The notes under the pieces: generated by a model
The model's input: the letters and a program-made list of their open reading frames with translations, nothing else
Told to the model about the DNA's origin: nothing
Databases searched by the model: none
In this document: in pieces, positions 7,749 to 22,389 of the stretch
How positions within the stretch are numbered: the first letter of the stretch is position 1
How the letters are laid out: each line of letters begins with the position of its first letter
Made by a program: the position numbers and the translations under genes
From: Nanobdellota archaeon
GTDB taxonomy: Archaea > Nanobdellota > Nanobdellia > Pacearchaeales > GW2011-AR1
Length of the DNA: 64,000 nt
NCBI GenBank assembly: GCA_038045705.1
Contig: JBBSXO010000003.1
Location: 9,237 to 73,236 of the forward strand
Direction: 5' to 3'

Positions 7749-9650
7749 TTAAATATCAATTTGCGCCTCCGACGCTCTTTCTGCAATAAACTGCTTTCGG
7801 TGCTCAACCTCATCACCCATCAGTTTAGAGAATACTTCATCAGCTTTTACTCCATCCTCAATTTTTACTCTCTTTAACATTCGAGTTTTAGGATTCATAG
7901 TAGTGTCCCATAACTGATCAGCATTCATTTCTCCAAGACCCTTAAATCTTTGAACATCCACATTACCACCAAGTTTAGAAATCAGTTCTTTTAATTCTTT
8001 ATCTGAATAGACATAATGATCTCCACGCTTACGTACTCTGTATAAAGGAGATACTGCAATGTAAATATGCCCATTCTCAATTAGTTTTGGAGTGAATCTA
8101 AAAAAGAAAGTAAGCAAAAGTGTTCTAATGTGTGCTCCATCCACATCAGCGTCAGTCATAATAATTATTTTAGAATATCTTAATTTAGAAATATCAAACT
8201 GCTCATTTATTCCTGCTCCTGTAGCCGTAATCATATTTGTAATTTCTTCATTTGATAAAACCTTAACTGGCTGAGCTTTCTCAACATTCAAAATCTTACC
8301 CTTTAAAGGTAATATTGCTTGAAATTCTTTATTACGTGCTTGTTTGCTACTGCCAGCCGCAGAATCTCCTTCCACAAGGTAAAGTTCAGTTTCTTCAGTC
8401 TTATTAGAAGAACAATCTGCAAGTTTGCCAGGAAGACCTCCAACTGAAAACGCATTCTTTCTACGAATCAATTCTTTAGCTTTCTTAGCAGCATTACGCG
8501 CCCTTTGTCCTTCAATTGCTTTATCGACAATTTTACGAGCAACTTGAGGGTTCTCTTCAAAAAACTCAGTCATTGCAAGCATAGAAACGCTATCAACTAT
8601 TCCCTTAACATCGCTATTGCCTAACTTTGTCTTCGTCTGTCCTTCAAATTGTGGTTCTGGAACTTTAACGGAAATTATAGCAGTCAAACCTTCACGAACA
8701 TCATCGCCTGTAACATTTCCATCCTTAAGCAGTTTACTCTTATTCCCATAATCATTTATTGCGCGAGTTAGTGCCGTCTTAAATCCTACAACATGAGTCC
8801 CGCCCTCAATAGTATTAATTGTATTAACGAAACTCAAAACGTTTTCCTGATAACCATCATTATATTGAACTGCACACTCCACAAACATTTTATCTTGTTC
8901 TTTCATGAAATAAACAGGTTTAAGATGAATTGGTTGTCTTGTCCTATTAACCCATTTCACAAAATCAATGAGACCACCCTCATAACTAAAAATCTCTTTC
9001 TTATTAGTTATCTTATCAGTTAAACTGATTTTTACACCTTTGTTCAAGAATGCAATTTCTCTAAATCTAGTTTCTAAAACAGAAAAATCAAACTTAGTTG
9101 TTGAAAATATAGTTTCATCAGGAGTAAAAGTAACTGAAGTCCCTGTCTGTTTTTTATCACAATCTCCAACGGTCTTCAATTTATAGATTGGTTTACCAAT
9201 TTCATATTCTTGCTGATATATTTTACCATCTCTCTTAATTACAACCTTGAAACTCTTAGATAAAGCTGCAACGACGCTTATACCAACTCCGTGAAGTCCT
9301 CCTGAAATCTTATAACTCCCCTTATCGAACTTTCCTCCAGCGTGCAATTTAGTGATTACAACTTCGACAGTAGGAATTTTATAAACTGGATGAGGGTCAA
9401 CAGGAATCCCACGACCATTATCTTCAACAGTTACGCTACCATCAGCATTAAGGGTAATGTCAATGTCGGTACAATAACCAGCCATAGCCTCATCAACAGA
9501 GTTATCTACTATTTCATCAACAAGTTTATGTAGGCCATATTTGCTCGTGCTACCAATATACATACTTGGTCTATGTCTTACTCCTTCCAAACCTTCCAGT
9601 ACCTTAATATTTTCTCCAGAGTAATTTTTTGCTTCTTTTTCAGATGCCAT
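7749..9650 (-). CDS. gyrB: DNA gyrase subunit B
   Basis: N-terminal YSGENIKVLEGLEGVRHRPSMYIGST, GHKL ATPase and Toprim motifs, 633 aa. Confidence 0.95.
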   Translation of the reverse strand: MASEKEAKNYSGENIKVLEGLEGVRHRPSMYIGSTSKYGLHKLVDEIVDNSVDEAMAGYCTDIDITLNADGSVTVEDNGRGIPVDPHPVYKIPTVEVVITKLHAGGKFDKGSYKISGGLHGVGISVVAALSKSFKVVIKRDGKIYQQEYEIGKPIYKLKTVGDCDKKQTGTSVTFTPDETIFSTTKFDFSVLETRFREIAFLNKGVKISLTDKITNKKEIFSYEGGLIDFVKWVNRTRQPIHLKPVYFMKEQDKMFVECAVQYNDGYQENVLSFVNTINTIEGGTHVVGFKTALTRAINDYGNKSKLLKDGNVTGDDVREGLTAIISVKVPEPQFEGQTKTKLGNSDVKGIVDSVSMLAMTEFFEENPQVARKIVDKAIEGQRARNAAKKAKELIRRKNAFSVGGLPGKLADCSSNKTEETELYLVEGDSAAGSSKQARNKEFQAILPLKGKILNVEKAQPVKVLSNEEITNMITATGAGINEQFDISKLRYSKIIIMTDADVDGAHIRTLLLTFFFRFTPKLIENGHIYIAVSPLYRVRKRGDHYVYSDKELKELISKLGGNVDVQRFKGLGEMNADQLWDTTMNPKTRMLKRVKIEDGVKADEVFSKLMGDEVEHRKQFIAERASEAQIDI

Positions 9651-10602
9651 TTTCTTCTCCTATTTTATATTTCATGCTACTCAAAAGGTAAGGCTTAATT
9701 ATTTTAACTAATTTTTTAGTATCATCTTGTTTAAACCTTAAATAATAATATTTACCATCTCTAAAACCAATTGTTGGATCTAGTCCAAATTTGTTATTAA
9801 AAAACTTTTTCATTAAATTATGCTCTTCTAAAGAATAAGCATTGGTGCATAAAATAATATAACCTTGAGTTCTGCTATAACTCCCATCATCACATACCCA
9901 TACTGCCAAGGAAGATGGATTTAACTGGTCTAAAATTTCTTGAGTTATAATCTTTCTTCCATTTTTGTAAAATAAATTTCTATAATAATTAAAAGCAGGA
10001 TGAGTATTTGTTGCAAAGTCCATAGCTTCGATAATGTGATCCTTAACTTTTCTTTTTACTTCTCTAAATTCACTTATCTTAAAATTCTTTAAAATATCAT
10101 GTTTCCATTGCGCATATAGTCTTTGCTTTGTCGAATGAGTAAATCTAAAGCAACTATTTTTTTCTCTCTGCCTTACACTAGCATCTCCCAATAAACTCCC
10201 CAATACTAAGTCATGCTCCTCCTGAGTTAACAAAATTCTAGGATTATTAGCTAAATCAAAATTCCATTTTTTAACAGATTCATATAATTTTCTTGCACTT
10301 AAAAAGTTAATATCATTTAGTTCAGCAAATTTCATTAATTCTCTATCAGTTCTTATTCTAGATAGAGCATTTGCTTTGCTTTTATGGATATTAGGAAAGA
10401 AAGATAAAATGCGGGCTTCTTCAACTGCATGTTGTAAGACATAAGGTTTGACATGAATTTCTTGAGATAAAATAAATATATCTCCATGTTTCTTAACTTT
10501 CCTCCTAAGTTCAATTATATCAAACTTTTTACGTATCTCTCCTAAATTATCTAAAACCTTGATATTTTCACCCGTATAACCTTTTTCACTCATACAAGTC
10601 AA
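9640..10602 (-). CDS. LAGLIDADG homing endonuclease (two-motif, single-chain) carrying a GyrB-like N-terminal ~20 aa
   Basis: Motif 1 is LVLGSLLGDASV and motif 2 is LAVWVCDDGSYS. The N-terminus MSEKGYTGENIKVLDNLGEIRKK parallels GyrB MASEKEAKNYSGENIKVLEGLEGVRHR. Its 3' end overlaps the gyrB start by 11 nt. Confidence 0.75.
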   Translation of the reverse strand: MTCMSEKGYTGENIKVLDNLGEIRKKFDIIELRRKVKKHGDIFILSQEIHVKPYVLQHAVEEARILSFFPNIHKSKANALSRIRTDRELMKFAELNDINFLSARKLYESVKKWNFDLANNPRILLTQEEHDLVLGSLLGDASVRQREKNSCFRFTHSTKQRLYAQWKHDILKNFKISEFREVKRKVKDHIIEAMDFATNTHPAFNYYRNLFYKNGRKIITQEILDQLNPSSLAVWVCDDGSYSRTQGYIILCTNAYSLEEHNLMKKFFNNKFGLDPTIGFRDGKYYYLRFKQDDTKKLVKIIKPYLLSSMKYKIGEENGI

Positions 10603-11190: not shown

Positions 11191-11505
11191 TTACTTGCCT
11201 CTTGAGTTATGTAATATCTGTATTTCTTTATCTGCTTCACCAGCATCAATTATTGCAACAGCACTTGTAGAAACAGGAATTCCAACAGCAACACCTAGTT
11301 TTTGCTTAGAGTCCACTTCAAAGCAAGGAATATTTTTCTCTTTAGAAAGAACTGCAAGATGAGCAACAATTTCCTTAGGACTTACATCAGCAGCATAAAA
11401 TACAGCTTTAGCAACTCCTCTTTCAATTGCTTTAGTAACTTCGTTAGTTCCCTTATCGACCTTTCCAGTCTTTCTTGCCTTTTCTATTATATTGTAGTAG
11501 TCCAT
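11191..11505 (-). CDS. rpl7ae: Ribosomal protein L7Ae
   Basis: KTGKVDKGTNEVTKAIERGVAKAVFYAADVSPKEIV...IPCFEVDSKQKLG. Sits in the conserved L7Ae-S28e-L24e gene order. Confidence 0.92.
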   Translation of the reverse strand: MDYYNIIEKARKTGKVDKGTNEVTKAIERGVAKAVFYAADVSPKEIVAHLAVLSKEKNIPCFEVDSKQKLGVAVGIPVSTSAVAIIDAGEADKEIQILHNSRGK

Positions 11506-11642: not shown

Positions 11643-13109
11643 CTATAAATTACTGTTACAGTCAACCTCCTCTAAAATTACCTTTTCAGGCGCCATTATT
11701 TGATAGTCAGGTCCAGTAATTTCAACCATAAAGTTCATAGTAATATGTGTAAGATTAATTTCATTGTCCATGTTATAATCCTTGCATAAATAATTCAAGT
11801 AATAAGACCTATAAATCTCATAATTTCTATCCCACATATTCATTAAATACTTTCTCCATCTTTCATGGGTGTATAAATTAGCAACATGATGAGGTTTCTC
11901 GAATGTAACAACTTGATCAGTCAACAAATCAATATGATCACCATTAGCAAGTTCACCATCAATAACATACCATCCATCTTCTTTGAGTGGAAATGGTGAA
12001 AACATATTCCAATATTGATCTATTCTCAGCTTTTGAGCAATAACCTCCCATTTATCGGGTACAGCATTACTTTTGCCAAGTGTCTGAATATTCCATAATA
12101 GTATGTAAATTATAAAGAAAAATGCAATCAAATTAAAAACTACTTTCTTCCAATTTATTTTAATATTATCTAATTCGTAATAATAAAGCTTTTTATCTCT
12201 TAGAAAATTAAGTTTATTTGATATTTTATCCCAAAATGCCGAAGGTAAAAATAAGATAAAAGCAACAATCCCTACAAATGGAAAATGTCCTAAATTAAGA
12301 AATAGAGCCATTCCAATCAAAGTTGCAAGGAAAGCGAACGTAGTTGCTATTCTAATTTGTTTAAAGAAAAATGGCACAAATAAAAGAATTGGACCAATAA
12401 GTTCAAGAAAATAAACAAAATGAGTCATACCAAACATTAAATCAGGATAATTAAGCAGAAACTTTCCTAAATGTGTAGCAAATTGATCAAGTTGTAGAGC
12501 ATAATAAATTGCAGTACCATTAGGAAACCATTCATTGCCAGTTTTAAGCAAAGCAGAAAAGAAATAAACAAAGGCTACTTGTAAAAGAATTCCTGCAGTT
12601 CCAAAAGACACAACATTTTTGTTATTACCATCTTTAACTTTTCCTCGTATTGCATCAAGAGAATATCTTAAATTAAGAGGTAAGAACATAGCCCAAAATA
12701 ATAATACTCTTAACATTATATCTCCACCTTGTAATATTGTAGGATTACGTGAATGAAGAGATATCAATAAAAACCACGAAACAATTGTAGCTAATCTAGT
12801 CTTATAACCTAATAATAATAAAATTGCGAATAAGCCTGCAATCATAAACAAAATAGACTGGAACAAAAAACCACCACTTATAATATGTATTGATACCCAC
12901 CCAGTATCTGCAAATATCGAATTATAAAAATCAAGAGGTAAAACTCCATAATCTGTATAGTGGGCAACTAATGCAAAACTTCTAACAATTAAATCAAAAA
13001 TCAAAATTAACGCCAAACAAATTCTAAAGATAGAAAGAGCACGAGCATCTATACCAAAAACATTTTTAACACCATCTTCAATTCTTTTAATCATCGTCGG
13101 AAATAGCAA
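11643..13109 (-). CDS. HTTM-domain (vitamin-K-dependent gamma-carboxylase-like) polytopic membrane protein with a C-terminal soluble domain
   Basis: N-terminal LSIFRICLALILIFDLIVR and a later SLHSRNPTILQGGDIMLRVLLFWAMFLPLNLRYSLD block match my recollection of the HTTM family. Multiple TM helices. The gene starts 24 nt downstream of the acidic giant protein gene. Confidence 0.55.
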   Translation of the reverse strand: MLFPTMIKRIEDGVKNVFGIDARALSIFRICLALILIFDLIVRSFALVAHYTDYGVLPLDFYNSIFADTGWVSIHIISGGFLFQSILFMIAGLFAILLLLGYKTRLATIVSWFLLISLHSRNPTILQGGDIMLRVLLFWAMFLPLNLRYSLDAIRGKVKDGNNKNVVSFGTAGILLQVAFVYFFSALLKTGNEWFPNGTAIYYALQLDQFATHLGKFLLNYPDLMFGMTHFVYFLELIGPILLFVPFFFKQIRIATTFAFLATLIGMALFLNLGHFPFVGIVAFILFLPSAFWDKISNKLNFLRDKKLYYYELDNIKINWKKVVFNLIAFFFIIYILLWNIQTLGKSNAVPDKWEVIAQKLRIDQYWNMFSPFPLKEDGWYVIDGELANGDHIDLLTDQVVTFEKPHHVANLYTHERWRKYLMNMWDRNYEIYRSYYLNYLCKDYNMDNEINLTHITMNFMVEITGPDYQIMAPEKVILEEVDCNSNL

Positions 13110-13132
13110 GAAAAAGTAGTAATTAAACTTAT

Positions 13133-16100
13133 TTAATTTCTACCAAAAAGTCTCTTAAAAAACCTTATCAAAGCATTATCTATCTTAGCATCCTCTCCAG
13201 CAATAACAGCCCCCCCACCAGTACTTCCACCACTGTCTCCACCACTTGTCGACCCCCCACTATCTCCACCAGAAGTTGAGCCACTCGTAGAACCGCCAGA
13301 ATCTCCTGATGTTGAGCCCCCTGTATACGACCCCCCACTAGTATAGGAACCACTATCTCCTCCCGTATATGAACCACCAGTATAACTTCCTCCAGTATAA
13401 GAACCGCCTGTGTAGCTACCCCCAGTATAACCAGAACCAGTTGTTGTTCCACTATATGATCCTCCACTAGTATAACCGGAACCAGTGTATGAACCACCTG
13501 TGTAAGATCCACCAGTATATGATCCCCCAGAAGAAGGATAAGCAGCAGCATAAGCAGCTGCATCAGCTGCAGCACTATAACCTTCAGGACCATAATTCCC
13601 TCCACTATAGGTATTTGTTGCAGGATCATAAGTTCCATAACCTCCCGGATATGAGTTATAAGGTGTTCCCCCTACAGGGCCAGTATAAGATCCACTATAA
13701 GGAGCAACCCCTCCAGGATAAGCTCCACCGGGCCACCCTGCTGCAGCTGCAGCAGGATTATAACCACCATAACCTGAAGCTCCAGGACCCATGGAACCAC
13801 CCATTGAAGCACCATATTCTTCAGCAGTAACAGTACTTCCGTCAGGTCTAACACCATTATACATCCCATCAGGTCTCACATGCCAAATAATTCCATTACC
13901 AGTACCATCGACGATTGTAGAGGGTCTTGCAACATAAGCTCCTTGTTGACCAGCGTAAGAACCAAATGTAGCTGCACCACCATAGTAACCATTGTAATTT
14001 CCACCAGCAACATAACTTCCATATCCAGCATATCCAGATCTACCACTAGATGAAGGAGTAGCAGGACTTAAACTTGGAGAGCCATCCACGGGAGCAGTTG
14101 GAGAAGGAGCAACACTTCCATCTATTTTCCAAGAACCATCAGCATTTTTTACCCAAGTGTTTCCATTCATGTCTTCTTGCTTTTCTTTACCCTCTTCAAC
14201 TCGATATTTCGGATCAAATTTTTGATAATTATCATATTGAGTATAAGTTCCGCTGGGATTGTAAACATAATAAGAATTAGAGTAAGTATTTTGTCTTACT
14301 TCAGTAGGAGCTGTACTTCCTTCACTGGTAGTGTAATATCCCCCATATTTATAGTCGCCACAGCCAACACATTCACCTGTTTTCATATTCCATGATTTGC
14401 TTCCATCACTAGCAGCCCACATGCCTGTTGCAGCATCAAATCCCCAAGGTTTTCCAGTGGCATCAACTACGCCCTCGACATAAGGTTTAACTTGTCCCCT
14501 ATAATCCGTATATGTTCCATCTGGAGCTACATAACCATAAGCACTTGGTGGAGGTGCAAAAACATTCCCACTAGAAGATTGCCAAGTTCCATCAGAAGAG
14601 TCCCAAGACCAAATTATGCCTTTAGCATCAGTATAACTGCCAGCATTTTCATGACCAACAGGACCATCTACAAAAGAACGCTGTACTACAACGCCATTAG
14701 TAGATTCTTTCCAAACACCATCTCCTTCATAATGCCATTTAGAGCCATCAGCAACAGAATAAACATATTCGTCGTTTGTCGCATCATAATTGTAAACATC
14801 ATCATGATAAAGAGTTCCTTCAGAAGGGGTAAATACTTGTCCGCTCTCTCCATTTACTAAAGAGGTCTCCCAAGTTGGATCATAGTCCCATTGAGTGACA
14901 AGTCCTGTATTATCTGTATAAGTAACTGAAATAGGACCTACTAATCCAACTCCATCTCCTTCAAAAATATAAGTTCCTTCAGCATAAGGCAAAGCAACTT
15001 CTTCATGGTTTGCAATAACTGTTTCTACTGTCTCTGCCTCTGTTTCAGAAGCAGTTTCTTCGGTGGCTGAATCACTAGATTCTACATTTGCCTCATAACC
15101 TGTTGTCGAGAAAATATACTCTACAATTGTTCCATCAGCAGCTTCTGACCTATAATTATAAACTTCATTTCCTCTTTCAAAATCAGCTGTTGTAGCAAAA
15201 CCAACAGGGTATTCCTGAGTATAACTTACACCAGATCTTGTAGTTACAACATAATTATTCTCCCCGTAAGTATAAATATAACCAGTAGCAGGATCAGAGT
15301 AAGGAACACTATGAGCATATGCTCCTGCCCAAACATAATTCTCATTCCATTCTCCATCTCTATATCCTCTAATAACTCCGTCTTCTCCAACTTCAATTCT
15401 TCCAAGAGGAACAGCATCTGTATTCTCTCCTTCAGTTTGTTCAGTTTCTGTAGTAATCATTCCAGGACCAAAAAAGTCCTCTGCTTGTCCATAAACAGCA
15501 TTCCATTCTTGTGCCCATCTTTCACCAACTGCCCTTTCTAAATCATTACCAGTTAACCCATCAGCAGTTAATTCAGCTCTCCATTGTTCCATCACTCCAT
15601 TTCCATATAATTGTTGTCCGAGAAGTCTTGCATTTTCTGCTCTTACATTTTCAGCACGTAAAGCAACTAATCTTTCAGGATCATCAGCATACTCTTGCAC
15701 AAGAGAATCATAATCTTCAATCAATTCCTCTGCAATTAATTGCTCTCTTTCTGTTTCAGCGACCAATTCTTCTGGAGTGAATGGCTCTGTATAAGCTAAA
15801 ACATCTTCATCAACATTACTAACCTCAGCGCCATCTGCAATTAATTCAGCGTTCTCTAAAAGAGATTCACTTTCTTGCAAGTGACCAAATCCTTCTAGAC
15901 TAAGCTCGGCTTCTTCAGCATGTAAACATTCAGTAGCATGCCTGTGAGCGGTATTCAATAATTCTCTTATTGCTTCTGCTCTTTCTGTATCTCCTTCTGC
16001 CTCTAGTTGATTAGCTTCTTCTTGCAATTGTATGATCTGATCTCTAACTTCTGCAATGGTTTGAGTATTAGCTATAGCCTGCATTCTTGCTTGTAAAGTT

Positions 16101-16759
16101 GGGTCATTGCTAAATGCGTAATCTTGAAAAGTATTTCCAACTTCAAATGTTGAAGCATCACTGTTTTCAGCCACACCTTCAATAACTTCAATTCTTCTGC
16201 CCTCTACACCTGCATTTACATCTGCGACAGACAGTTGGATATCATTAAGTAAATCTAAAGTTTCAGCCTCATCTATTACACCATTAGCAATCTGTTCATC
16301 TAATGCAATTTCAAGAATATCAACATATTCGCTATAAGTCAAAGCCGTTTCAAATTCACCTGCTAATTCAATAGCAACAGAGTCAAAATTGTCAAGAGTA
16401 ACTCCTTCAACACTAACTTCTTCAACTTCTAAATCTGCTTCAATACCTGCTAATTCTTCAGCCATTCCATTCAATGCATCTTGTGCAGCTTCTATATCTC
16501 CATCTTCAATACAAATACCTGCTTCGTGATAATATTCTTCAGGAGTATGAGTGAAATCTAGAAAATCATACCAATCTTGGGGAGTTATTCCTGCAACATC
16601 CTCGCTAAAAACTATTTCACTAGTAGAATCAACTCCAGACAAATCTTCAGTTTCAGGAGCATCTTGTGCATAAACACTAACACCAAAAAAACTAAAGAAG
16701 ATTAATGATATTAAAAAAATAGAACTTACCCTCGAGAAAATCAATTTATTTCCCATCAC
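13133..16759 (-). CDS. Large (1208 aa) secreted, highly acidic (Glu/Asp/Ala-rich) protein with a beta-rich W/Y/G middle region and a C-terminal GGSYT tandem array
   Basis: Signal peptide MMGNKLIFSRVSSIFLISLIFFSFFGVSVYAQD. The N-terminal half is about 25% D/E. W..DG.W repeats occur in the middle. Nucleotide composition is visibly GC-richer than the surrounding sequence. Confidence 0.8.
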   Translation of the reverse strand: MMGNKLIFSRVSSIFLISLIFFSFFGVSVYAQDAPETEDLSGVDSTSEIVFSEDVAGITPQDWYDFLDFTHTPEEYYHEAGICIEDGDIEAAQDALNGMAEELAGIEADLEVEEVSVEGVTLDNFDSVAIELAGEFETALTYSEYVDILEIALDEQIANGVIDEAETLDLLNDIQLSVADVNAGVEGRRIEVIEGVAENSDASTFEVGNTFQDYAFSNDPTLQARMQAIANTQTIAEVRDQIIQLQEEANQLEAEGDTERAEAIRELLNTAHRHATECLHAEEAELSLEGFGHLQESESLLENAELIADGAEVSNVDEDVLAYTEPFTPEELVAETEREQLIAEELIEDYDSLVQEYADDPERLVALRAENVRAENARLLGQQLYGNGVMEQWRAELTADGLTGNDLERAVGERWAQEWNAVYGQAEDFFGPGMITTETEQTEGENTDAVPLGRIEVGEDGVIRGYRDGEWNENYVWAGAYAHSVPYSDPATGYIYTYGENNYVVTTRSGVSYTQEYPVGFATTADFERGNEVYNYRSEAADGTIVEYIFSTTGYEANVESSDSATEETASETEAETVETVIANHEEVALPYAEGTYIFEGDGVGLVGPISVTYTDNTGLVTQWDYDPTWETSLVNGESGQVFTPSEGTLYHDDVYNYDATNDEYVYSVADGSKWHYEGDGVWKESTNGVVVQRSFVDGPVGHENAGSYTDAKGIIWSWDSSDGTWQSSSGNVFAPPPSAYGYVAPDGTYTDYRGQVKPYVEGVVDATGKPWGFDAATGMWAASDGSKSWNMKTGECVGCGDYKYGGYYTTSEGSTAPTEVRQNTYSNSYYVYNPSGTYTQYDNYQKFDPKYRVEEGKEKQEDMNGNTWVKNADGSWKIDGSVAPSPTAPVDGSPSLSPATPSSSGRSGYAGYGSYVAGGNYNGYYGGAATFGSYAGQQGAYVARPSTIVDGTGNGIIWHVRPDGMYNGVRPDGSTVTAEEYGASMGGSMGPGASGYGGYNPAAAAAGWPGGAYPGGVAPYSGSYTGPVGGTPYNSYPGGYGTYDPATNTYSGGNYGPEGYSAAADAAAYAAAYPSSGGSYTGGSYTGGSYTGSGYTSGGSYSGTTTGSGYTGGSYTGGSYTGGSYTGGSYTGGDSGSYTSGGSYTGGSTSGDSGGSTSGSTSGGDSGGSTSGGDSGGSTGGGAVIAGEDAKIDNALIRFFKRLFGRN
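13211..13530 (-). repeat. 15-nt-period coding tandem repeat encoding (GGSYT)n / (GGDSGGSTS)n
   Basis: Protein C-terminus GGSYTGGSYTGGSYTGSGYT...GGDSGGSTSGGDSGGSTGGG. The DNA shows repeating ccaccagtata(a/t)ga-type units. Confidence 0.85.
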
Positions 16760-16795: not shown

Positions 16796-17764
16796 TTATT
16801 TCCATTTAACATTAACCATATCAGTTCTCTCGCGAGCATTAATCTCAACATCTTCTGGTTTCTTTTTAATCCCAGAATTAAATAAAATCTCACCAGTAAA
16901 AGCGATCATTCCCCCATTATCAACGAGAAATTCTTTAGCAGGACAAAATAATCTGGCTCCACGAGATTCACACATTAATCTACACATTTCTTGCAAACGC
17001 AGATTACAAGCAACTCCTCCACCTAAAACAAGTTCATTTTTACCAGTATGAGCAAGAGCTCTTTCAGCTGCTTCAACAAGCATTGCAAAAGCAGTTTCTT
17101 GCATTGAAAATGCTAAATCTTCAACACTATGACCTTTATCATAAAGTTGTTTCATTTTTGTTTGCATGCCAGAAAAAGAAACATCCATTCCCTTAATGGA
17201 ATAAGGTAGCTCAATATATTTACCATTCTTAGCCTTTCCTTCAAGAACAGGACCAGCAGGAAAAGGAACACCTACATACCTTCCAAATGTATCTATAAAA
17301 TTTCCAACTCCCAAATCAAGAGTCTCCCCAAAAACTCTATATTTTCCAGAAGAATAAGCTATAACTTGAGTATTAGCTCCAGAAGCATATAGTAAAACAG
17401 GGTCTTTAGCTCCAACACTCTGACCAATCTCGAGATGGGCAATACAATGATTTACGGGAACAAGTTGCACACCTAATCCAATAGCTTTTTCTTTAGCAAA
17501 ATTCAATCCAGCATATAAACAAGGAGCAAGTCCAGGAGCATTTGAAATAGCAATTGCCTCTATATCTGGATCAGAACATCCTGCTTTAGATAAAGCTTCT
17601 TCCCAAATTTGTTGGGCTACAAGTTTATGGTGTTCTGCACTTTTATTAGGAATTATGCCACCTTCAGAAGGCTTATACATATCTTTAACATTAGCAAGAA
17701 CATTTCCTTTAGAAACAACACCCACTCCAAAAGTATGAGCAGTAGTTTCAATACCAACTATCAT
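16796..17764 (-). CDS. kae1: tRNA N6-adenosine threonylcarbamoyltransferase Kae1 (KEOPS catalytic subunit)
   Basis: MIVGIETTAHTFGVGVV, an H-x-x-x-H metal site (HCIAHLEIG), and an ASKH-fold GG motif. 322 aa, with no Bud32 fusion. Confidence 0.9.
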   Translation of the reverse strand: MIVGIETTAHTFGVGVVSKGNVLANVKDMYKPSEGGIIPNKSAEHHKLVAQQIWEEALSKAGCSDPDIEAIAISNAPGLAPCLYAGLNFAKEKAIGLGVQLVPVNHCIAHLEIGQSVGAKDPVLLYASGANTQVIAYSSGKYRVFGETLDLGVGNFIDTFGRYVGVPFPAGPVLEGKAKNGKYIELPYSIKGMDVSFSGMQTKMKQLYDKGHSVEDLAFSMQETAFAMLVEAAERALAHTGKNELVLGGGVACNLRLQEMCRLMCESRGARLFCPAKEFLVDNGGMIAFTGEILFNSGIKKKPEDVEINARERTDMVNVKWK

Positions 17765-17846
17765 AAAATTACCAGTAAAAAATTCTATTTAAATATAATT
17801 ACTTAAATAAAAAAATAAACAAAACAAAAATAACCAAACTAAAACG

Positions 17847-17976
17847 TCAAACTATCGACGTTTCTTCTTTCTCCCACCACGAGACATTTTAGCTTCACAA
17901 ACATTGCCCTGTGCATCAACATAGTATAAGTAACCGTGTTGGCGCTTAACAATATTCTTCGCAATAATTTTTCCCA
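17847..17976 (-). CDS. Small basic protein (41 aa) absent from the ORF track: MGKIIAKNIVKRQHGYLYYVDAQGNVCEAKMSRGGRKKKRR
   Basis: A GGAGGTG Shine-Dalgarno-like motif lies 4 nt upstream of the ATG. The ORF sits in the Kae1/DUF192 intergenic gap. Basic C-tail. Confidence 0.45.
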
Positions 17977-18058
17977 TAAACACCTCCGACAATCCAAAAA
18001 TCAACCTAATATTTAAATGTTTGTATTTATCGACGGTAAAACGAACTCCAAAAATAAA

Positions 18059-18436
18059 CTAGCGACGATAATATTTTGCCAAAGTTTTAGTACTAACAAA
18101 TTTCTTTACAAGAGGAAAATTAGAATTATTAAGTGGAATTTCTACAATTCTATAAAATTTTCTCTTTTGAGAAATAGAAAAAGTAAATGGTCTGACAATT
18201 TTAAAGCCAATAACTTTATTTTTTTCATCAAGCCATAAAGTCAAAAATGGGAAAAATACAAATAATGATGTTAAATTACCTTGCCAAGTCACTGCTCTTG
18301 AAAAATCAAAGAGCAAAATGCTAGTATCTTTAGTTCTAAAAGTCAAACCTAAACCTCTGCTAAAAAAACCAGTTTGCCTAACGCTGAATTCAATTTTCCG
18401 CCCATTAAAGGAAACGACAAGTCTCATAAATATCAA
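18059..18436 (-). CDS. DUF192 (COG1430)-like protein
   Basis: FFSRGLGLTFRTKD...LLFDF resembles the DUF192 R-x-x-GLM-x-R core. Confidence 0.45.
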   Translation of the reverse strand: MIFMRLVVSFNGRKIEFSVRQTGFFSRGLGLTFRTKDTSILLFDFSRAVTWQGNLTSLFVFFPFLTLWLDEKNKVIGFKIVRPFTFSISQKRKFYRIVEIPLNNSNFPLVKKFVSTKTLAKYYRR

Positions 18437-18735
18437 ATATCTTTCATCTCTGATTTTATCTTAGACATTTTACTAAGCTTATCTGAAACCTTATCAGACC
18501 TACCCTGCAACTCTTTTTTATGCTCCTGGAGTTTTGCCTCTTTTTCAGAGAGACTTGCAAGAAGTTTCTGCATTGCAAGTTCTTTCTGTCTACTTTCAGA
18601 AATACTCGAAGAAGTTTTCTCTATAGATTTCTTTAAAGAGTCTCTTTCCTTACTAAGAGAACTTATCTCACTCTCAAGATCTTTAATTGCACCAGAAAGA
18701 GCAGAACCTTTTTTAACCACCATTTTATCAATCAA
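18433..18735 (-). CDS. Coiled-coil protein, hypothetical
   Basis: Heptad-rich K/E/S/L sequence. Overlaps the downstream gene by 4 nt. Confidence 0.4.
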   Translation of the reverse strand: MIDKMVVKKGSALSGAIKDLESEISSLSKERDSLKKSIEKTSSSISESRQKELAMQKLLASLSEKEAKLQEHKKELQGRSDKVSDKLSKMSKIKSEMKDI

Positions 18736-18751
18736 CCAACGATAAATCTAT

Positions 18752-19759
18752 TTATAAACGTTTCTTTAATTGGTTCGAAAGTTTATCTATTTCACTAATA
18801 GCCGAATCAAAAGAGTTTTTTGAGATATATCTTGAAGAATAAGCTCTATGTAAAACATCTTTTTGAGCTTCTAATTTACGTAATCCTTTAGCAGCATCGC
18901 TAAACTGAGTTTTTTTAATATATTCGATTTCTGATCTCCAGTTCTTAGTTTGCCTAACTGATCTGTTGTACCATAAATAACTAATAAGCATTATAAAAGA
19001 AAGCAAAAATATGAATATGCTCATGTAAATTCTAAAAGAATATTTATTAGTTTCAGGTGGACTCAAAAGCAGATTATTAGAAAGTGAAATCTGATATAAA
19101 TCTAGTCCAAAAGAATTTCCACTTTTAGCAGAAGCAACCATCAAGACTTCATCATGACCATTTGTTCCAAGATTAAAGAAATGTTCAAATGAAGCTTGTC
19201 TTGAAACAGAAACAACTTCTTCAGAGTAACTTAAAAGATCTCCCTCTAAAGAATAAATCGAAAATGCTAAAGCAATACCATTAGATCCAGGATTATTGTA
19301 ATTAAGCTTGTAAACATCGATAATTGGAGAAAGAATAGTCTCTCCAGAAATAACTGAAATATCAGAATTAGCATCAAAATCAATCGAAACATCATATACC
19401 ATTTCAGAACTTCTAGACTCCAGTCCAATAACTACTGGAATGTTTTGAACAATTTCGCTTTCTTTTGAAATAATTAATGTATCAAAATAAACACCCTTCT
19501 CTAACGCACCATTATCCACAATTAAGTTAAAAGAACCAAATTCCTCCTGAGCAACCTCTACAAAGGCAGTTTCAAGTTTAACAGCAGGAGAATTATCTCT
19601 CAAATTAGCAGTGTAACTTCCAGATTCACCAGAATTAAAAAAACTTACTGGAAAAACAGCACTTCCACGAGCGGTTATAATCTCAACAGTATGAGGTGTC
19701 TCTAAACTGCTGACAAAAGACAATGCAAAAAAGATAAAAAATAAAAATAGAGTTTTCAT
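18752..19759 (-). CDS. Type-I membrane surface protein (signal peptide + C-terminal TM + cytoplasmic coiled-coil tail)
   Basis: N-terminal MKTLFLFFIFFALSFVSS, C-terminal IYMSIFIFLLSFIMLISYLWY then a charged tail. Confidence 0.55.
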   Translation of the reverse strand: MKTLFLFFIFFALSFVSSLETPHTVEIITARGSAVFPVSFFNSGESGSYTANLRDNSPAVKLETAFVEVAQEEFGSFNLIVDNGALEKGVYFDTLIISKESEIVQNIPVVIGLESRSSEMVYDVSIDFDANSDISVISGETILSPIIDVYKLNYNNPGSNGIALAFSIYSLEGDLLSYSEEVVSVSRQASFEHFFNLGTNGHDEVLMVASAKSGNSFGLDLYQISLSNNLLLSPPETNKYSFRIYMSIFIFLLSFIMLISYLWYNRSVRQTKNWRSEIEYIKKTQFSDAAKGLRKLEAQKDVLHRAYSSRYISKNSFDSAISEIDKLSNQLKKRL

Positions 19760-20823
19760 TTAATATTTCCTACCAATTTAAATTGTTTTTTATTATTATG
19801 TTTAAAGAATAAAACTGCAAGAAAACAAACAATTAATGCTATGATCATAGCTCCAACAGCTACCCACGTTTGAGGCGTTATCAAAGAATCTGATATCTTA
19901 AAATGAGCTGTTGATGTAGCAAATCCTCCTATATACACTAGTTCAACACCTAGTATATAATCTCCAGGCTCAAGTCCTAGCGTTGAAAATCTCTTACTGT
20001 AACTTTTAGCTCCTCGAACATAAAATGTCTCAGATTCTGTATAACGTACATTTCCGTCAAAATCTTTTATAATATAATTCATAGTAACATCAACACCAGT
20101 TTCACCACCGACTTCTAAAAGTTCTATTAATGCAGGAAGTCTCTGGCCTGCCCTAAGAATACGATATAAATCAGGAACGGTTATTGTCGCATCAAATAAA
20201 ACTCCTTCGCTAACAACATTTAGTAAAACCAGAACTTCTTTTGTAATTCCCTGATAAGTTAATATAATCTTTCCAGCATAAACGCCTGGTTCAGGAGCAT
20301 TTATTGTAAATCTAAGAGGAGCCTTTTGACCAGGTGTTAAAGAAATCAAATCTGTGTTAAAATAAATATAATTATCAATCCCAGTTACACTCACAGTAAT
20401 ATCAATAGCAGTAGAGCCAGTATTCTCTAAAATTAACTCATTAGTTTCACTTTCTCCAGAGATAATCTTAATATTAAAACTCTCTTCACTTACTTTAAAA
20501 TTAGGAGTTGATGAATAACCTCCACTTCCTCCGTCTGACCCTGACCCAGATCCACCTCCAGATCCAGTAGATGAACATGAACCACAATCACTAGAACAAG
20601 AAGAACAAGTTTCAGCGCCATTACACAGTGCATCGCCACACTCTGCCTCAGAACCTTCTACAGTAATGCCAACACTAGCTTCAGAAGATGAATGTGCTAC
20701 TAGTTTAGAATTATAATCATAAACATAAATTCCTATAGAGAAAAACAAACTAAAAAAAGCTAATATTCCAGAAATAACTAAAATAAAAAATAAAGATTTC
20801 TTGATCTCCACCATATATATCAA
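19756..20823 (-). CDS. Membrane-anchored surface protein with a Cys-rich segment and Gly/Ser linker
   Basis: N-terminal TM. CGDALCNGAETCSSCSSDCGSCSS followed by GSGGGSGSGSDGGSGG. C-terminal TM WVAVGAMIIALIVCFLAVLFF. Confidence 0.55.
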   Translation of the reverse strand: MIYMVEIKKSLFFILVISGILAFFSLFFSIGIYVYDYNSKLVAHSSSEASVGITVEGSEAECGDALCNGAETCSSCSSDCGSCSSTGSGGGSGSGSDGGSGGYSSTPNFKVSEESFNIKIISGESETNELILENTGSTAIDITVSVTGIDNYIYFNTDLISLTPGQKAPLRFTINAPEPGVYAGKIILTYQGITKEVLVLLNVVSEGVLFDATITVPDLYRILRAGQRLPALIELLEVGGETGVDVTMNYIIKDFDGNVRYTESETFYVRGAKSYSKRFSTLGLEPGDYILGVELVYIGGFATSTAHFKISDSLITPQTWVAVGAMIIALIVCFLAVLFFKHNNKKQFKLVGNIK

Positions 20824-20866
20824 AAGAAATATAGTATTAAATATGTTCGTAATATGTAATAAAACA

Positions 20867-21277
20867 TCAAGTTAAGCGCATTAATTTGATATTAACATCA
20901 CCAGTGTAATTTCCTAAAAGCTCAAGAGAATTTGCTGAAACAGTAAAGTAAAATTTAGAAGTGTGATAAGGTTCAACAATTAATGGTTCATAAGTAATTA
21001 TCTTTTTTATAGAACCATCAAATTTAGGTTCAACTCTAACAGAAAAAGGATAAGAATTATTTACCAAAATAGATCTAGTTGAACTACCCCCGAGAACAAT
21101 GCTCCCAAAAGTTAAAGCAGTAGAATTAACGTCAAACCCAGCTACGTCTTGCGTAACAAAAGCAGTAGTTTGAAAAGAAAACTCTGAAATAGGAGTTATA
21201 TAATAAAAATAGATAAAAAGAGTCATAACTAAAACAATCAAAGAAATAAAGAATGCAAGCACCAATAAATTTTTCAT
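20867..21277 (-). CDS. Small N-terminally anchored membrane protein (pilin-like?)
   Basis: Single N-terminal TM (LVLAFFISLIVLVMTLFIYFYYI). 136 aa. Confidence 0.4.
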   Translation of the reverse strand: MKNLLVLAFFISLIVLVMTLFIYFYYITPISEFSFQTTAFVTQDVAGFDVNSTALTFGSIVLGGSSTRSILVNNSYPFSVRVEPKFDGSIKKIITYEPLIVEPYHTSKFYFTVSANSLELLGNYTGDVNIKLMRLT

Positions 21278-22389
21278 CTTCTCTTATTCCTGAAAAAGAG
21301 TCTTTTTAAAATGAAGTATAGAACAATAAAGAAGATAATAGCAACAATTGCAGAAACAGAGTAAATAATTAGACTATAATCCTTACCTACAAAAAGACTT
21401 CCATAAATGAAAGTAGATTGACCATGATAGCTTGCATTAAGAAATAAATTATATTTTCCTTCTAAATTATCAGTATCAAGATAACTTTCAATCACTTTCT
21501 CTTCCCAAGGTTCCAAATCTATAGAAGGAGTTCTAAAAACCATACTATAAATATCATTTGTTAAATTAACATCCACATAAGCTCCTAAGACTTTAGAGTT
21601 CCACTTATTTTCCAATGTAACATAAAATTTCTGTATTCCACCTCCAAGAACATAGTTTGTAAAATTAGTTATATTTACAAATAAGGAACCAACTCTAAAA
21701 GATTTGTTAACCTCTCGAGTAATACCTTCATAAGAAACTCTAGCACGACCTATATAATTTCCAGGAACAATACCAGTAGTATCTAAATATTTTCTAAAGT
21801 ATCTCTCGCCAAAGATAGGAATATTTACTGGAGTAAACTCAATCTTTTTTACAGCATTTCCATCACCAGATACAAAATCAACAAAAACACTTTCTATATT
21901 AAGAGGATTATCCCCTCTATTAATAACATGAAGCTCAACAGGTATATTTTCATCTACATTTCCATCTGGAATACTTAAAGATAAATCTCCATAATATCCA
22001 GGATAAGGCACAAAAGTCTTTACAGTAGAACCAACCTCAACAACTGTATTAATAAATGAACTTTCAGAAGGTCTCTCTTTAACACTCACGCTAATTGTGC
22101 TAGTACCAGGTTTATCAAAATCTGTAGGAAATTTTATAGTTAAAATAAAAACTCCATTACCCTTAACAGAATCAACATTAAGAGAAGAATAATCTGCTAG
22201 GTCCCCACCTCTAATACCAACATCATATGTTGAGTATTCCACAGCATCTAAAACATAAAATGTAATATTGACTTCTTGTCCTGGAACAAAGTCTATATTT
22301 TTTATTGCAGGAGATATCCCTAATGCAGAAACATAAGAAATTGAGAAAATAAACAATAAAACTAAAGCAGATTTTCCAACCATCATCAT
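21274..22389 (-). CDS. Type-I membrane surface protein
   Basis: Signal peptide MMMVGKSALVLLFIFSISYVSA. C-terminal TM IIYSVSAIVAIIFFIVLYFIL with an RNKRR tail. Confidence 0.55.
   Translation of the reverse strand: MMMVGKSALVLLFIFSISYVSALGISPAIKNIDFVPGQEVNITFYVLDAVEYSTYDVGIRGGDLADYSSLNVDSVKGNGVFILTIKFPTDFDKPGTSTISVSVKERPSESSFINTVVEVGSTVKTFVPYPGYYGDLSLSIPDGNVDENIPVELHVINRGDNPLNIESVFVDFVSGDGNAVKKIEFTPVNIPIFGERYFRKYLDTTGIVPGNYIGRARVSYEGITREVNKSFRVGSLFVNITNFTNYVLGGGIQKFYVTLENKWNSKVLGAYVDVNLTNDIYSMVFRTPSIDLEPWEEKVIESYLDTDNLEGKYNLFLNASYHGQSTFIYGSLFVGKDYSLIIYSVSAIVAIIFFIVLYFILKRLFFRNKRR

What the first reader, a model, noticed from the sequence alone, without database searches (positions are those of the whole stretch)
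11643..16759. HTTM (gamma-carboxylase-like) membrane protein immediately downstream of a giant Glu-rich secreted protein: candidate modification system
Two adjacent same-strand genes separated by 24 nt encode a 1208-aa signal-peptide protein whose N-terminal half is extraordinarily Glu/Asp-rich, followed by a 488-aa polytopic protein. The second protein's N-terminal region matches, from my recollection, the HTTM domain of vitamin-K-dependent gamma-glutamyl carboxylase. In animals that enzyme converts Glu to Gla in secreted substrates. Prokaryotic HTTM proteins are essentially uncharacterised, so a tight pairing with an acidic secreted giant protein suggests an enzyme-substrate or secretion/maturation module. 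The protein might be a divalent-cation-binding cell-surface or matrix protein. The locus also stands out compositionally in this genome.
Basis: partly seen in the sequence, partly recalled or inferred. Interest (0 to 1): 0.7.

Follow-up and report, generated by a model that had tools for sequence, protein, structure and literature searches.

The report
Archaeal carboxylase-like gene beside acidic giant
A tiny groundwater archaeon carries a membrane protein shaped like the human vitamin K-dependent carboxylase next to a huge acidic surface protein, but relatives often carry one gene without the other, so they are probably neighbours in a variable genome slot, not a dedicated enzyme-substrate pair.

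Summary
On the minus strand, a 1208-aa secreted protein (13133-16759) is very acidic and poor in lysine. 23 nt downstream lies a 488-aa nine-helix membrane protein (11643-13109).

The giant belongs to a DUF5667-type family of acidic surface proteins from Nanoarchaeota, with about 53 clusters.

Both genes sit in a variable slot between kae1 and rpl7ae. Relatives found through the HTTM gene split 6 to 6: giant upstream, or HTTM alone overlapping kae1. Of six giant homologues found through the giant itself, only one has an HTTM gene nearby. Giants are equally acidic and keep the same C-terminal tail with or without HTTM.

A dedicated Glu-to-Gla system is therefore not supported. A looser enzyme-client relation cannot be excluded. 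Interest is modest.

The parts
13133..16759 (-). Gene for the 1208-aa secreted acidic giant protein. It belongs to a DUF5667-type surface-protein family of Nanoarchaeota.
   Evidence: ORF and composition. An exhaustive HMMER search finds 53 representative clusters. N-termini of the homologues P0140, P0133 and P0127 hit Pfam DUF5667. NCBI names P0133 a 'DUF5667 domain-containing protein'. The window protein itself has no significant Pfam hit (best E 0.55, DUF7342) and no NCBIfam hit.
16667..16759 (-). Sec-type signal peptide of the giant (aa 1-31, cleavage after VYA). It is strongly conserved among the closest giants.
   Evidence: Hydrophobic segment at aa 11-29. Alignment A2 shows a conserved 'NKLIFSKVSS.FLISLIFFS.F.V.VYAQD'.
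15494..16621 (-). Acidic, nearly Lys-free, all-helical N-terminal half (aa about 47-422). Its start, aa about 45-120, corresponds to the DUF5667 region of homologues.
   Evidence: Composition per 100 aa. The AlphaFold model m3b5dc68b031d shows helices 53-422 with pLDDT mostly 80-90. DUF5667 hits in homologues at aa about 38-120.
14120..15457 (-). Beta-hairpin-rich middle region (aa about 435-880), rich in Gly, Tyr, Thr and Trp, with recurring 'DG[ST]W' motifs.
   Evidence: The model shows about 45 short strands with pLDDT mostly 80-93. There is no significant PDB match. The best Foldseek E is 1.6e-3 at TM 0.08, with weak resemblance to propellers, Rhs/teneurin YD sheets and the CPAP G-box.
13220..14062 (-). 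Low-complexity Gly/Ser/Thr/Tyr/Ala/Pro region (aa about 900-1180) with (GGSYT)n and (GGDSGGST)n repeats. It is probably a flexible, possibly glycosylated stalk (inference).
   Evidence: Translation, composition and tandem repeats at 13365-13574. GC2 is 0.71 in this segment.
13136..13219 (-). Conserved C-terminal tail of the giant family, 'GGGAVIAGEDAKIDNALIRFFKRLFGRN'. The pattern is Gly-Gly, a hydrophobic V-I, an acidic residue, then an amphipathic basic/aromatic end.
   Evidence: Tails compared. The tail is present in giants with and without a neighbouring HTTM gene. The hydrophobic moment of the last 18 aa is 0.56.
13110..13132 (-). Intergenic spacer between the giant and HTTM, 23 nt (38 nt to the annotated ATG at 13094). 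It holds an AT-rich TTTAATT element about 30 nt upstream of that ATG and a T5 run.
   Evidence: Sequence. Whether it is a promoter is not shown.
11643..13109 (-). Gene for the 488-aa HTTM/GGCX-fold membrane protein. This is the subtype without the DCC thiol-disulfide oxidoreductase domain, and its family is widespread in prokaryotes.
   Evidence: The family is found in at least 558 species genomes. NCBI already names P0001 'HTTM domain-containing protein [Nanoarchaeota archaeon]'.
12210..13055 (-). HTTM transmembrane domain (aa about 19-300), aligned to GGCX residues 60-310.
   Evidence: hmmsearch alignment and hhalign alignment.
12543..12545 (-). Codon of Lys189, invariant in 40 of 40 relatives. 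It aligns with the GGCX catalytic base Lys218. Trp194 follows at the same K-x4-W spacing as K218/W223.
   Evidence: Invariant columns and the alignments. Residue identities were checked. Residue roles are from PMC12647623.
12156..12212 (-). Linker (aa about 300-318) at the site where many homologues carry an inserted DCC1-like thiol-disulfide oxidoreductase domain. 'KLYYYELD' looks like a remnant of 'RVYYDGECGTCR'. No Cys motif is left.
   Evidence: Sequences of P0016, P0028 and P0058 against the window protein. PF04134 annotations. No DCC-like sequence elsewhere in the window.
11646..12152 (-). Last transmembrane helix (aa 320-343) plus a roughly 145-aa C-terminal domain. The domain is extracytoplasmic by homology with GGCX and carries the invariant motif D-Q-x-W-N-M-F-S-P-x-P.
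   Evidence: Model secondary structure and invariant columns Q365, W367, F370, P372, P374. Only the helix start aligns to GGCX 364-372 by hhalign. The equivalence 'YWNMF' = GGCX 'SWDMM' (W399) is inferred from spacing.
13040..13453 (-). Tract that is 95-100% identical in DNA to a different population (L124/L090) whose genome is otherwise about 74% identical. It spans the giant's 3' end, the spacer and the first 18 or so codons of HTTM, and marks a recombination tract.
   Evidence: Sliding identity and whole-locus BLAST. L124 and L090 are independent contigs from two wells with the same junction.

Best explanation
Two unrelated cell-envelope genes share a variable slot between kae1 (16796-17764) and rpl7ae (11191-11505) in a clade of Nanoarchaeota that includes genomes labelled Pacearchaeota and Woesearchaeota. 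Their adjacency is inherited, and is reshuffled by homologous recombination. It is not the signature of a dedicated enzyme-substrate module.

Gene 1, the giant, is a fast-evolving, Sec-exported surface protein of a DUF5667-type family.
- It has an acidic, Lys-poor helical head and a beta-hairpin-rich middle.
- It continues with a Gly/Ser/Thr/Tyr stalk and a conserved amphipathic basic C-terminal tail.
- The tail most likely holds the protein at the membrane or envelope (inferred).
- The likely role is surface or host contact (inferred).

- The most likely mechanism, inferred from conserved residues, starts at the outer face of the membrane. Lys189, stacked on Trp194 and next to Glu236, deprotonates a reduced quinone.
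- O2 addition then creates a strong base that activates a substrate held by the small C-terminal domain.
- The CO2-pocket Phe (F276) is kept, so carboxylation of some carbon acid is possible.
- The substrate is not recognised the way GGCX recognises Glu, because Asn159/His160 are replaced and clamp B of the propeptide cleft is missing.
- Many relatives carry a DCC thiol-disulfide oxidoreductase domain inserted in what should be a cytoplasmic loop. It may recycle the quinone (speculation). The window protein has lost it.

Shown: fold, conserved residues and the synteny pattern. Inferred: quinone use, topology, substrate class and the surface role of the giant.
For: HTTM/GGCX fold:
- 22 of 40 relatives hit PF05090.
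- A family profile matches GGCX 60-310, and hhalign gives E 3.7e-8.
- The model has pLDDT 91 and pTM 0.90.

Catalytic residues (roles from PMC12647623, and PMC13486548):
- K189=K218, W194=W223, E236=D263, F276=F299.

Independence of the two genes:
- HTTM alone, overlapping the kae1 stop, occurs in L005/6, L007/8, L009, L123 and L089. L121/122 also has HTTM without the giant.
- The giant without HTTM occurs in L004, L125, L126, L127 and L128. A tblastn search with HTTM finds nothing there at E<=1.
- Both genes together occur only in window/L001, L120, L010, L124/L090, L036 and L018.
- The three states are interspersed on the Kae1, L7Ae+S28e and HTTM trees.
- The giant of L124 is a mosaic of L010-like and window-like parts, with a crossover inside the 5' end of HTTM. 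Recombination between conserved flanks therefore explains why the giant always lands in the same place.
- Giants have the same acidity and the same tail with or without HTTM.
- Across 80 diverse genomes the HTTM family has no conserved partner gene.
Against: - In every lineage that has both genes, the order and strand are the same and the gap is short (about 20-110 nt).
- The pair stays together where the upstream neighbour differs. That neighbour is kae1 in the window, an OTCase/ATCase-family carbamoyltransferase in L010 and an aminotransferase-like gene in L036.
- The pair also spans both the DCC and DCC-less HTTM forms, down to 54% HTTM identity.
- Genomes lacking one partner at this locus may carry it elsewhere. 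L127 shows that giants can sit at other loci. Whole genomes could not be searched.
- The known relatives of the fold, GGCX, LMF1 and SdpB, all act on secreted proteins. That is from my own knowledge for LMF1 and SdpB.
- Quinone use is inferred only. I did not check whether these reduced genomes can make or obtain quinones.
Confidence: 0.55

Rival explanations
1. Facultative enzyme-client pair. The HTTM protein is a general maturation or modification enzyme for exported proteins at the outer membrane face. The DUF5667 giant, translated from the gene just upstream, is one of its clients where both are present. Neither strictly needs the other.
For: - Giant then HTTM, in the same orientation with a short gap, recurs in six lineages whose HTTM proteins are 54-100% identical to the window's, across both DCC and DCC-less forms.
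- The pair persists when the upstream neighbour changes.
- By homology with GGCX, the catalytic Lys and the C-terminal domain face outwards, where the giant's membrane-proximal end would be.
- The fold's characterised relatives act on secreted substrates (PMC12647623; my own knowledge for LMF1 and SdpB).
Against: - Only 1 of 6 giants sampled through the giant itself has an HTTM nearby.
- Half of the clade's HTTM genes lack the giant and abut kae1 instead.
- No giant feature, whether acidity, Lys depletion or the C-terminal tail, tracks HTTM presence.
- Adjacency is explained by shared ancestry plus recombination through the conserved flanks.
Confidence: 0.27
2. The HTTM protein is a true gamma-glutamyl carboxylase that converts Glu to Gla in the Glu-rich N-terminal half of the giant, producing a cation-binding surface or matrix protein.
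For: - GGCX fold with conserved equivalents of K218, W223, D263 and F299.
- The giant's first 600 residues contain 93 Glu.
- The two genes are adjacent on the same strand.
Against: - GGCX's Glu-carboxylate ligands Asn159/His160 are replaced. The family has an invariant G128-G129-D130 at or next to that position in both alignments.
- Tyr395 appears to be replaced by Ile363. This rests on spacing only and is tentative.
- The C-terminal domain is about 145 aa with about four strands, so it has no clamp B jelly roll to form the propeptide cleft (PMC12647623).
- No propeptide-like element lies next to the Glu-rich region.
- Giants in HTTM-less loci are just as Glu-rich, at E 7.5-10.9%.
- In papers I read, bacterial and viral relatives do chemistry other than Glu carboxylation. 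MloH carboxylates an aspartyl residue of a polyketide-peptide intermediate, and the viral VKED proteins are proposed epoxidases.
Confidence: 0.05
3. The HTTM protein acts on a lipid or on the quinone itself rather than on any protein. It could be a quinol epoxidase coupled to membrane-lipid remodelling, as proposed for giant-virus VKED proteins, or it could handle host-derived quinones. On this reading it is unrelated to the giant.
For: - The quinol-deprotonation residues are kept while the Glu-binding residues are lost. This is the same pattern reported for viral GGCX-like epoxidases, with K218 kept, D263 changed to E and N290 lost (PMC13486548).
- Redox partners recur in the family: the inserted DCC domain, and DsbA-like neighbours with a CPYC motif in five bacterial loci.
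Against: - Unlike the truncated viral proteins, this family keeps a conserved extracytoplasmic C-terminal domain with invariant residues (Q365, W367, F370, P372, P374, G379, W380, R417). That argues for a bound substrate.
- The CO2-pocket Phe is also kept.
- No desaturase or lipid-metabolism gene is a conserved neighbour.
Confidence: 0.13

Closest known systems
[quoted passage not shown]
   Same: - Nine-helix HTTM membrane fold. It is the only structural match.
- Catalytic Lys stacked on a Trp five residues later: K189/W194 = K218/W223.
- Neighbouring acid: E236 = D263.
- CO2-pocket Phe: F276 = F299.
- A final transmembrane helix followed by an extracytoplasmic domain that opens with a W-x-M-[FM] motif.
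   Different: - 12-15% sequence identity and 488 aa against 758 aa.
- The Glu-binding Asn159/His160 are not conserved, Asn290 is replaced by Met or Leu, and Tyr395 is probably Ile.
- The C-terminal domain is about 145 aa and has no clamp B jelly roll or C-terminal helices, so there is no canonical propeptide exosite.
- No Gla-type substrate is known in archaea.
Prokaryotic HTTM-DCC proteins, annotated as 'DCC family thiol-disulfide oxidoreductase YuxK' or 'HTTM domain-containing protein'
   Same: True homologues over the full length, 45-60% identical (P0016, P0028, P0058). They share the invariant residues and the C-terminal domain.
   Different: They carry a roughly 110-aa DCC1-like domain (PF04134, motif YDGxCxxC) inserted between the HTTM domain and the last transmembrane helix. 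The window protein has only a short Cys-free remnant there. Their function is unknown too. A preprint models an HTTM-DCC protein in complex with a DUF5819 partner (10.64898/2026.08.19.745780).
MloH of Streptomyces (malonomycin biosynthesis)
   Same: A bacterial GGCX-like enzyme reported to keep the residues for KH2 deprotonation and CO2 handling, and to carboxylate something other than protein Glu (PMC12647623). It shows what a non-Gla member of the fold can do.
   Different: It sits in a polyketide/non-ribosomal-peptide cluster and acts on a small-molecule intermediate. No such cluster is present here. I did not compare the sequences directly.
Giant-virus VKED (GGCX-like epoxidase fused to, or next to, a sterol desaturase)
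   Same: The same residue pattern: the K218 equivalent is kept, D263 is replaced by Glu and N290 is lost (PMC13486548).
   Different: The viral proteins lack the region after about residue 300. This family keeps a conserved C-terminal domain. No desaturase or VKOR gene was seen in the annotated stretch around the pair (L001, about 21 kb); the rest of the window was not scanned.
SdpB (TIGR04033) and LMF1 (PF06762)
   Same: Distant members of the same superfamily. SdpB is the only NCBIfam model that the window protein touches (E 1.8e-7). 6 of 40 relatives touch LMF1 weakly.
   Different: The SdpB score is 31 bits against a cut-off of 178, and no sdpA or sdpC genes are nearby. The window protein has no LMF1 hit.
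DUF5667 domain-containing secreted proteins of Nanoarchaeota (for the giant)
   Same: Full-length homologues at E down to 1e-95, some of which pass the Pfam DUF5667 threshold at their N-terminus. They share the signal peptide, acidic head, Gly/Ser-rich stalk and C-terminal tail.
   Different: The window protein itself does not reach any Pfam threshold. The family has no known function and no significant PDB match.

Membership tests
Pfam HTTM (PF05090) | The protein itself matches the profile at or above the gathering score | tested here: not met
   hmmscan gives no PF05090 hit even at E<=10.
Pfam HTTM (PF05090) | Homology to the HTTM region shown through close relatives or a family profile | tested here: met
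   22 of 40 relatives (38-70% identical in alignment A1) hit PF05090, best E 6.7e-13. A family profile matches GGCX 60-310 at E 0.002. hhalign gives 95% probability, E 3.7e-8 over 240 columns.
[quoted passage not shown] | Nine-helix membrane fold with an extracytoplasmic C-terminal domain | tested here: met
[quoted passage not shown] | Catalytic base Lys218 stacked on Trp223, with Asp263 adjacent | tested here: met
   K189 and W194 are invariant in 40 of 40 sequences and align to K218 and W223. E236 (at least 90% conserved) aligns to D263. D263E keeps partial activity according to PMC13486548.
[quoted passage not shown] | CO2-trapping Phe299 | tested here: met
   The invariant F276 aligns to F299 in the hhalign alignment: 'LGHFPF' against 'IGMFSY'.
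[quoted passage not shown] | Glu-carboxylate ligands Asn159, His160 and Tyr395 | tested here: not met
   In the HMMER alignment N159/H160 fall on G128/G129. In the hhalign alignment they fall on T124/D130. Y395 maps to I363, but only by spacing from the aligned transmembrane helix and the W motif, so that residue is tentative.
[quoted passage not shown] | Propeptide-binding cleft between clamp A and the clamp B jelly roll | tested here: not met
   The C-terminal domain is about 145 aa with four strands and three helices, so it has no eight-stranded jelly roll. In GGCX the lumenal domain spans about 370 residues with two clamps (PMC12647623).
[quoted passage not shown] | Dependence on reduced vitamin K, O2 and CO2, with Gla in the product | not testable with these tools
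   Needs biochemistry or mass spectrometry.
SdpB subfamily (NCBIfam TIGR04033) | Score above the curated cut-off | tested here: not met
   31.1 bits against a cut-off of 178.4.
DCC1-like thiol-disulfide oxidoreductase fusion (PF04134) | Inserted DCC domain with a D-x-x-C-x-x-C motif | tested here: not met
   Present in P0016, P0028 and P0058. The window protein has 'KLYYYELDNIKINWKK' with no Cys. A tblastn search with the DCC domain against the window finds nothing significant.
DUF5667 family (for the giant) | N-terminal DUF5667 profile match | tested here: inconclusive
   The window giant has no hit. Among its full-length homologues, P0140 (E 9.2e-12) and P0133 (29.1 bits against a cut-off of 27) pass and P0127 is just below. 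These homologues match the window giant at E 1e-32 to 1e-84.
Conserved two-gene module (enzyme plus dedicated substrate) | Co-localisation kept across relatives, with loss of one partner accompanied by loss of the other | tested here: not met
   Sampling through HTTM gives 6 lineages with the giant and 6 without. Sampling through the giant gives 1 with HTTM and 5 without. The states are interspersed on the trees. Whole-genome co-occurrence was not testable.
Conserved two-gene module (enzyme plus dedicated substrate) | Co-transcription of the two genes | not testable with these tools
   There is only the 23-38 nt spacer with an AT-rich element. No transcript data are available.

The most novel reading that the evidence does not exclude
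The HTTM protein is a quinol- and O2-driven modifying enzyme, a carboxylase or a related base-generating enzyme. Where both genes are present, it post-translationally modifies the DUF5667 giant at the archaeal cell surface. That would be the first protein substrate of a GGCX-fold enzyme outside animals, and it would sit in an episymbiotic archaeon that probably has to borrow its quinone.
Probability: 0.12. Interest if true: 0.8.

Novelty: new member of a known kind. Interest (0 to 1): 0.3.

Why it matters
If the pair were a real modification system, it would bring vitamin K-type protein chemistry to archaea and give an uncharacterised prokaryotic HTTM family a testable substrate. The evidence here points the other way. 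Both genes are ordinary members of known but uncharacterised families that happen to share a recombining, variable slot.

Three results are still useful:
- This prokaryotic HTTM subfamily, present in at least 558 species genomes including DPANN and Halobacteriales, keeps GGCX's quinol-deprotonation and CO2-pocket residues but not its Glu-binding residues. That narrows what chemistry to test.
- The DCC domain is an insertion at a defined loop, and this lineage has lost it.
- The DUF5667 giants form a coherent family of about 50 clusters of acidic surface proteins with a conserved, undescribed C-terminal tail, and there is evidence that they are exchanged between co-occurring groundwater populations.

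Tried and rejected
- **Direct family scans.** Pfam scans of both proteins, down to E<=10, gave nothing for HTTM. The giant gave only a chance-level DUF7342 hit.
- **Direct PDB sequence search.** phmmer of the HTTM protein found nothing. Only the family profile reached GGCX.
- **C-terminal domain against GGCX.** hhalign of the C-terminal sub-alignment against GGCX 364-630 aligned only nine residues of the preceding helix. The W367=W399 and I363=Y395 equivalences therefore stay tentative.
- **The 506-aa ORF of L004 and the 476-aa ORF of L127.** I tested both as hidden HTTM genes and rejected both.
- **The giant's C-terminal tail as a GGCX-propeptide-like recognition helix for HTTM.** Rejected, because the same tail is conserved in giants from loci without HTTM.
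- **Foreign origin of the giant, suggested by its raised GC.** Rejected, because GC3 equals that of the neighbouring genes.
- **L090 as an assembly chimera.** Rejected, because the independent 96-kb contig L124 from another well carries the same junction.
- **A conserved partner gene across bacteria.** Neighbour clusters were generic: TPR proteins, histidine kinases, an ABC ATPase, TolC and GGDEF/EAL proteins. A DsbA-like protein turned up in only five loci.
- **Word-index protein searches for the giant.** These found only 3 clusters. The exhaustive HMMER search found 53.
- **Structural search with the giant model.** No significant PDB hit.
- **The afdb50 fold library.** Not available.
- **Literature.** Nothing on DUF5667, and nothing linking HTTM or GGCX to DPANN archaea.

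Full report
**1. Observation**

Both ORFs are on the minus strand.
- The upstream gene, 13133-16759, encodes 1208 aa from a GTG start, or 1207 aa from the next ATG as in the public annotation P0121.
- The downstream gene, 11643-13109, encodes 488 aa from a TTG start. NCBI and ENA aa from the ATG at 13094 (P0001).
- The spacer is 23 nt, or 38 nt to the annotated ATG.

The source is a Nanoarchaeota MAG from Hainich groundwater, well H41, 0.1 um fraction.

The giant has these properties:
- It carries a Sec-type signal peptide.
- It has 112 Glu, 78 Asp, 17 Lys and 33 Arg, for a net charge of -140.
- Its first 600 residues hold 134 acidic residues and one Lys.
- GC is 0.39-0.44 across the gene against 0.318 for the window.
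- GC3 is 0.17, the same as in the neighbouring genes. The anomaly therefore comes from amino-acid content and not from foreign DNA.

**2. What the 488-aa protein is**

- There is no PF05090 hit even at E<=10.
- The only curated-model contact is NCBIfam SdpB, at 31 bits against a cut-off of 178.

Homology is nevertheless secure.
- 1394 relatives were found. Many carry a precomputed PF05090 annotation, and NCBI already names this protein 'HTTM domain-containing'.
- 22 of 40 aligned relatives hit PF05090.
- The family profile finds human GGCX residues 60-310.
- hhalign gives 95% probability, E 3.7e-8.

I mapped residues. Roles come from PMC12647623 and PMC13486548.

| GGCX residue | Role | Window protein | Status |
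|---|---|---|---|
| Lys218 | catalytic base | K189 | invariant |
| Trp223 | stacks on the base | W194 | invariant, same K-x4-W spacing |
| Asp263 | acid next to the base | E236 | at least 90% conserved, conservative change |
| Phe299 | CO2 pocket | F276 | invariant |
| Asn159/His160 | bind the Glu carboxylate | G128/G129 (HMMER) or T124/D130 (hhalign) | not conserved |
| Asn290 | hydrogen bond to vitamin K hydroquinone | Met or Leu | not conserved |
| Tyr395 | stacks on the substrate dipeptide | probably I363 | tentative, by spacing only |

The C-terminal domain is about 145 aa and has no jelly roll. The clamp B that GGCX uses to grip the propeptide is therefore missing.

I checked my recalled human GGCX sequence for residues 364-630 against the PDB, and it matched 100%.

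The family thus keeps the quinol-activation and CO2 sites but not GGCX's way of holding Glu or a propeptide. The papers report broadly the same picture for bacterial and viral relatives.

**3. The DCC insertion**

Many homologues of 585-650 aa have a DCC1-like thiol-disulfide oxidoreductase domain inserted between the HTTM domain and the last transmembrane helix. The window protein keeps only a Cys-free remnant at that site. By homology with GGCX this loop should be cytoplasmic, which is an inference. No DCC gene lies elsewhere in the window.

**4. What the giant is**

- Word-index searches found only three clusters.
- An exhaustive HMMER search found 53 representative clusters, 45 of them at E<=1e-10. 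Most are full-length matches of 750-1400 aa.
- The complete members share five features: a signal peptide, strong acidity (net charge -20 to -148, most below -100), a Gly/Ser-rich low-complexity stalk, and a conserved tail.
- The tail reads G-[AHYM]-V-I-x-[DE], then 8-15 residues, then [KR][KR]LFG[RK]N or [KR][YF]R[LR]F.
- Three of eight homologues hit Pfam DUF5667 right after the signal peptide. NCBI names one of them a DUF5667 domain-containing protein.
- A model of aa 1-900 (pLDDT 77) shows a helical acidic head (aa 53-422) and then about 45 short beta strands. It has no significant PDB match.

I read the giant as a surface protein anchored or retained by its C-terminal end. That reading is an inference.

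**5. Is the pair a module?**

The whole region is syntenic in relatives: kae1, the slot, rpl7ae, rps28e, rpl24e, gyrB, gyrA.

| State of the slot | Lineages |
|---|---|
| Giant then HTTM | window/L001; L120; L010; L124=L090; L036 and L018 (both with DCC-HTTM) |
| HTTM only, start overlapping or abutting the kae1 stop | L005/6, L007/8, L009, L123, L089 |
| HTTM only, other arrangement | L121/122 |
| Giant only | L004, L125, L126, L128; also L127 at another locus |

A tblastn search with HTTM against the giant-only loci finds nothing at E<=1.

- Sampling through HTTM therefore gives 6 lineages with the giant and 6 without.
- Sampling through the giant gives 1 with HTTM and 5 without.
- On the Kae1, L7Ae+S28e and HTTM trees the three states are interspersed. 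Giant-only lineages are among the deepest.
- Giants without HTTM are as acidic as the others and keep the same tail.
- Across 80 diverse bacterial and archaeal loci the HTTM family has no conserved neighbour.
- In HTTM-only genomes the gene is packed even more tightly against kae1. Short spacing therefore means little in these compact genomes.

**6. Recombination**

The L124/L090 population is about 74% identical to the window genome. It is 95-100% identical over window positions of about 13040-13453, which cover the giant's 3' end, the spacer and the first 18 or so HTTM codons. The rest of its giant resembles that of L010.

Its closest HTTM relative, L007, has no giant.

Exchange of giant cassettes by homologous recombination through conserved flanks explains why the giant always lands in the same position and orientation. 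No functional link is needed to explain that.

**7. Conclusion**

- The best-supported reading (0.55) is that two independent envelope genes share a variable slot.
- A facultative client relation (0.27) is not excluded. The order is constant, the pair survives changes of the upstream neighbour, and it spans both HTTM forms. Missing partners might also lie elsewhere in genomes I could not search.
- A lipid or quinone substrate unrelated to the giant is also possible (0.13).
- A true Glu-to-Gla system is unlikely (0.05).
- The finding is a new member of known, uncharacterised families. The protein is already annotated as HTTM in NCBI. Interest is modest.

Noticed in passing
window 13040-13453 (minus strand); L124 about 9900-10290; L090 1-290: This tract of roughly 400 nt is 95-100% identical between two populations whose genomes are otherwise about 74% identical. 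It covers the giant's 3' end, the spacer and the first 18 or so HTTM codons. The L124 giant is a mosaic, L010-like in the body and window-like at both ends. This points to recent recombination of surface-protein cassettes between co-occurring groundwater Nanoarchaeota.
   Followed up: partly
window 13136-13219; C-termini of P0122-P0175: The giant family shares an undescribed C-terminal tail. It follows a (GGDSGG)n stalk and reads G-[AHYM]-V-I-x-[DE], then 8-15 aa, then either [KR][KR]LFG[RK]N or [KR][YF]R[LR]F at the C-terminus. It is not a transmembrane helix, and no NCBIfam model hits the window giant. It may be a new anchoring or sorting signal.
   Followed up: partly
window 12156-12212; P0016 aa about 300-420: In this HTTM subfamily the DCC1-like thiol-disulfide oxidoreductase domain is an insertion into the loop before the last transmembrane helix, not an N- or C-terminal fusion. 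The window lineage keeps a short Cys-free remnant, 'KLYYYELD'.
   Followed up: partly
window 15000-16759 (giant aa 1-600): There is one Lys in 600 residues, with 22 Arg, in a genome whose ORFs average 7.6% Lys. The closest giants are similarly Lys-poor at 1.4-1.9%, but deeper family members are not, at up to 9.4%. The cause is unknown.
   Followed up: partly
window 24925-30876 (minus strand): A second huge ORF of 1983 aa. It has an N-terminal hydrophobic segment, very many N-x-S/T sequons, and an internal duplication in which the stretch starting 'PYNGTALILNSTLGLNRTLEDLNVRTTLLDL' occurs twice. It is probably another glycosylated surface protein.
   Followed up: no
window 9640-10602 (minus strand): A LAGLIDADG homing-endonuclease ORF lies between rpl24e and gyrB, and its end overlaps the gyrB start by 11 nt. 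L005, L007 and L009 lack it at that position and L036 has it. In L121 and L126 gyrB instead carries an intein.
   Followed up: partly
L032 6535-7785; L038 44-988 (bacterial loci): In five bacterial loci, labelled Enterobacterales, Deltaproteobacteria, Omnitrophota and Melainabacteria, a related protein is encoded near the HTTM gene. In L032 and L038 it lies just upstream, and the L032 member is DsbA-like with a CPYC motif. Together with the DCC insertions, this is a recurring link between this HTTM subfamily and thiol-disulfide redox proteins.
   Followed up: no
window 17800-23100 (minus strand); L001 1-5036; L005, L007, L123, L124: A conserved block of six or seven genes upstream of kae1 encodes small proteins, several with hydrophobic N-terminal segments and, in those read, a C-terminal transmembrane segment. 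One has a weak HYDIN/VesB-like Ig domain. The block is syntenic in all close relatives, and its function is unknown.
   Followed up: no
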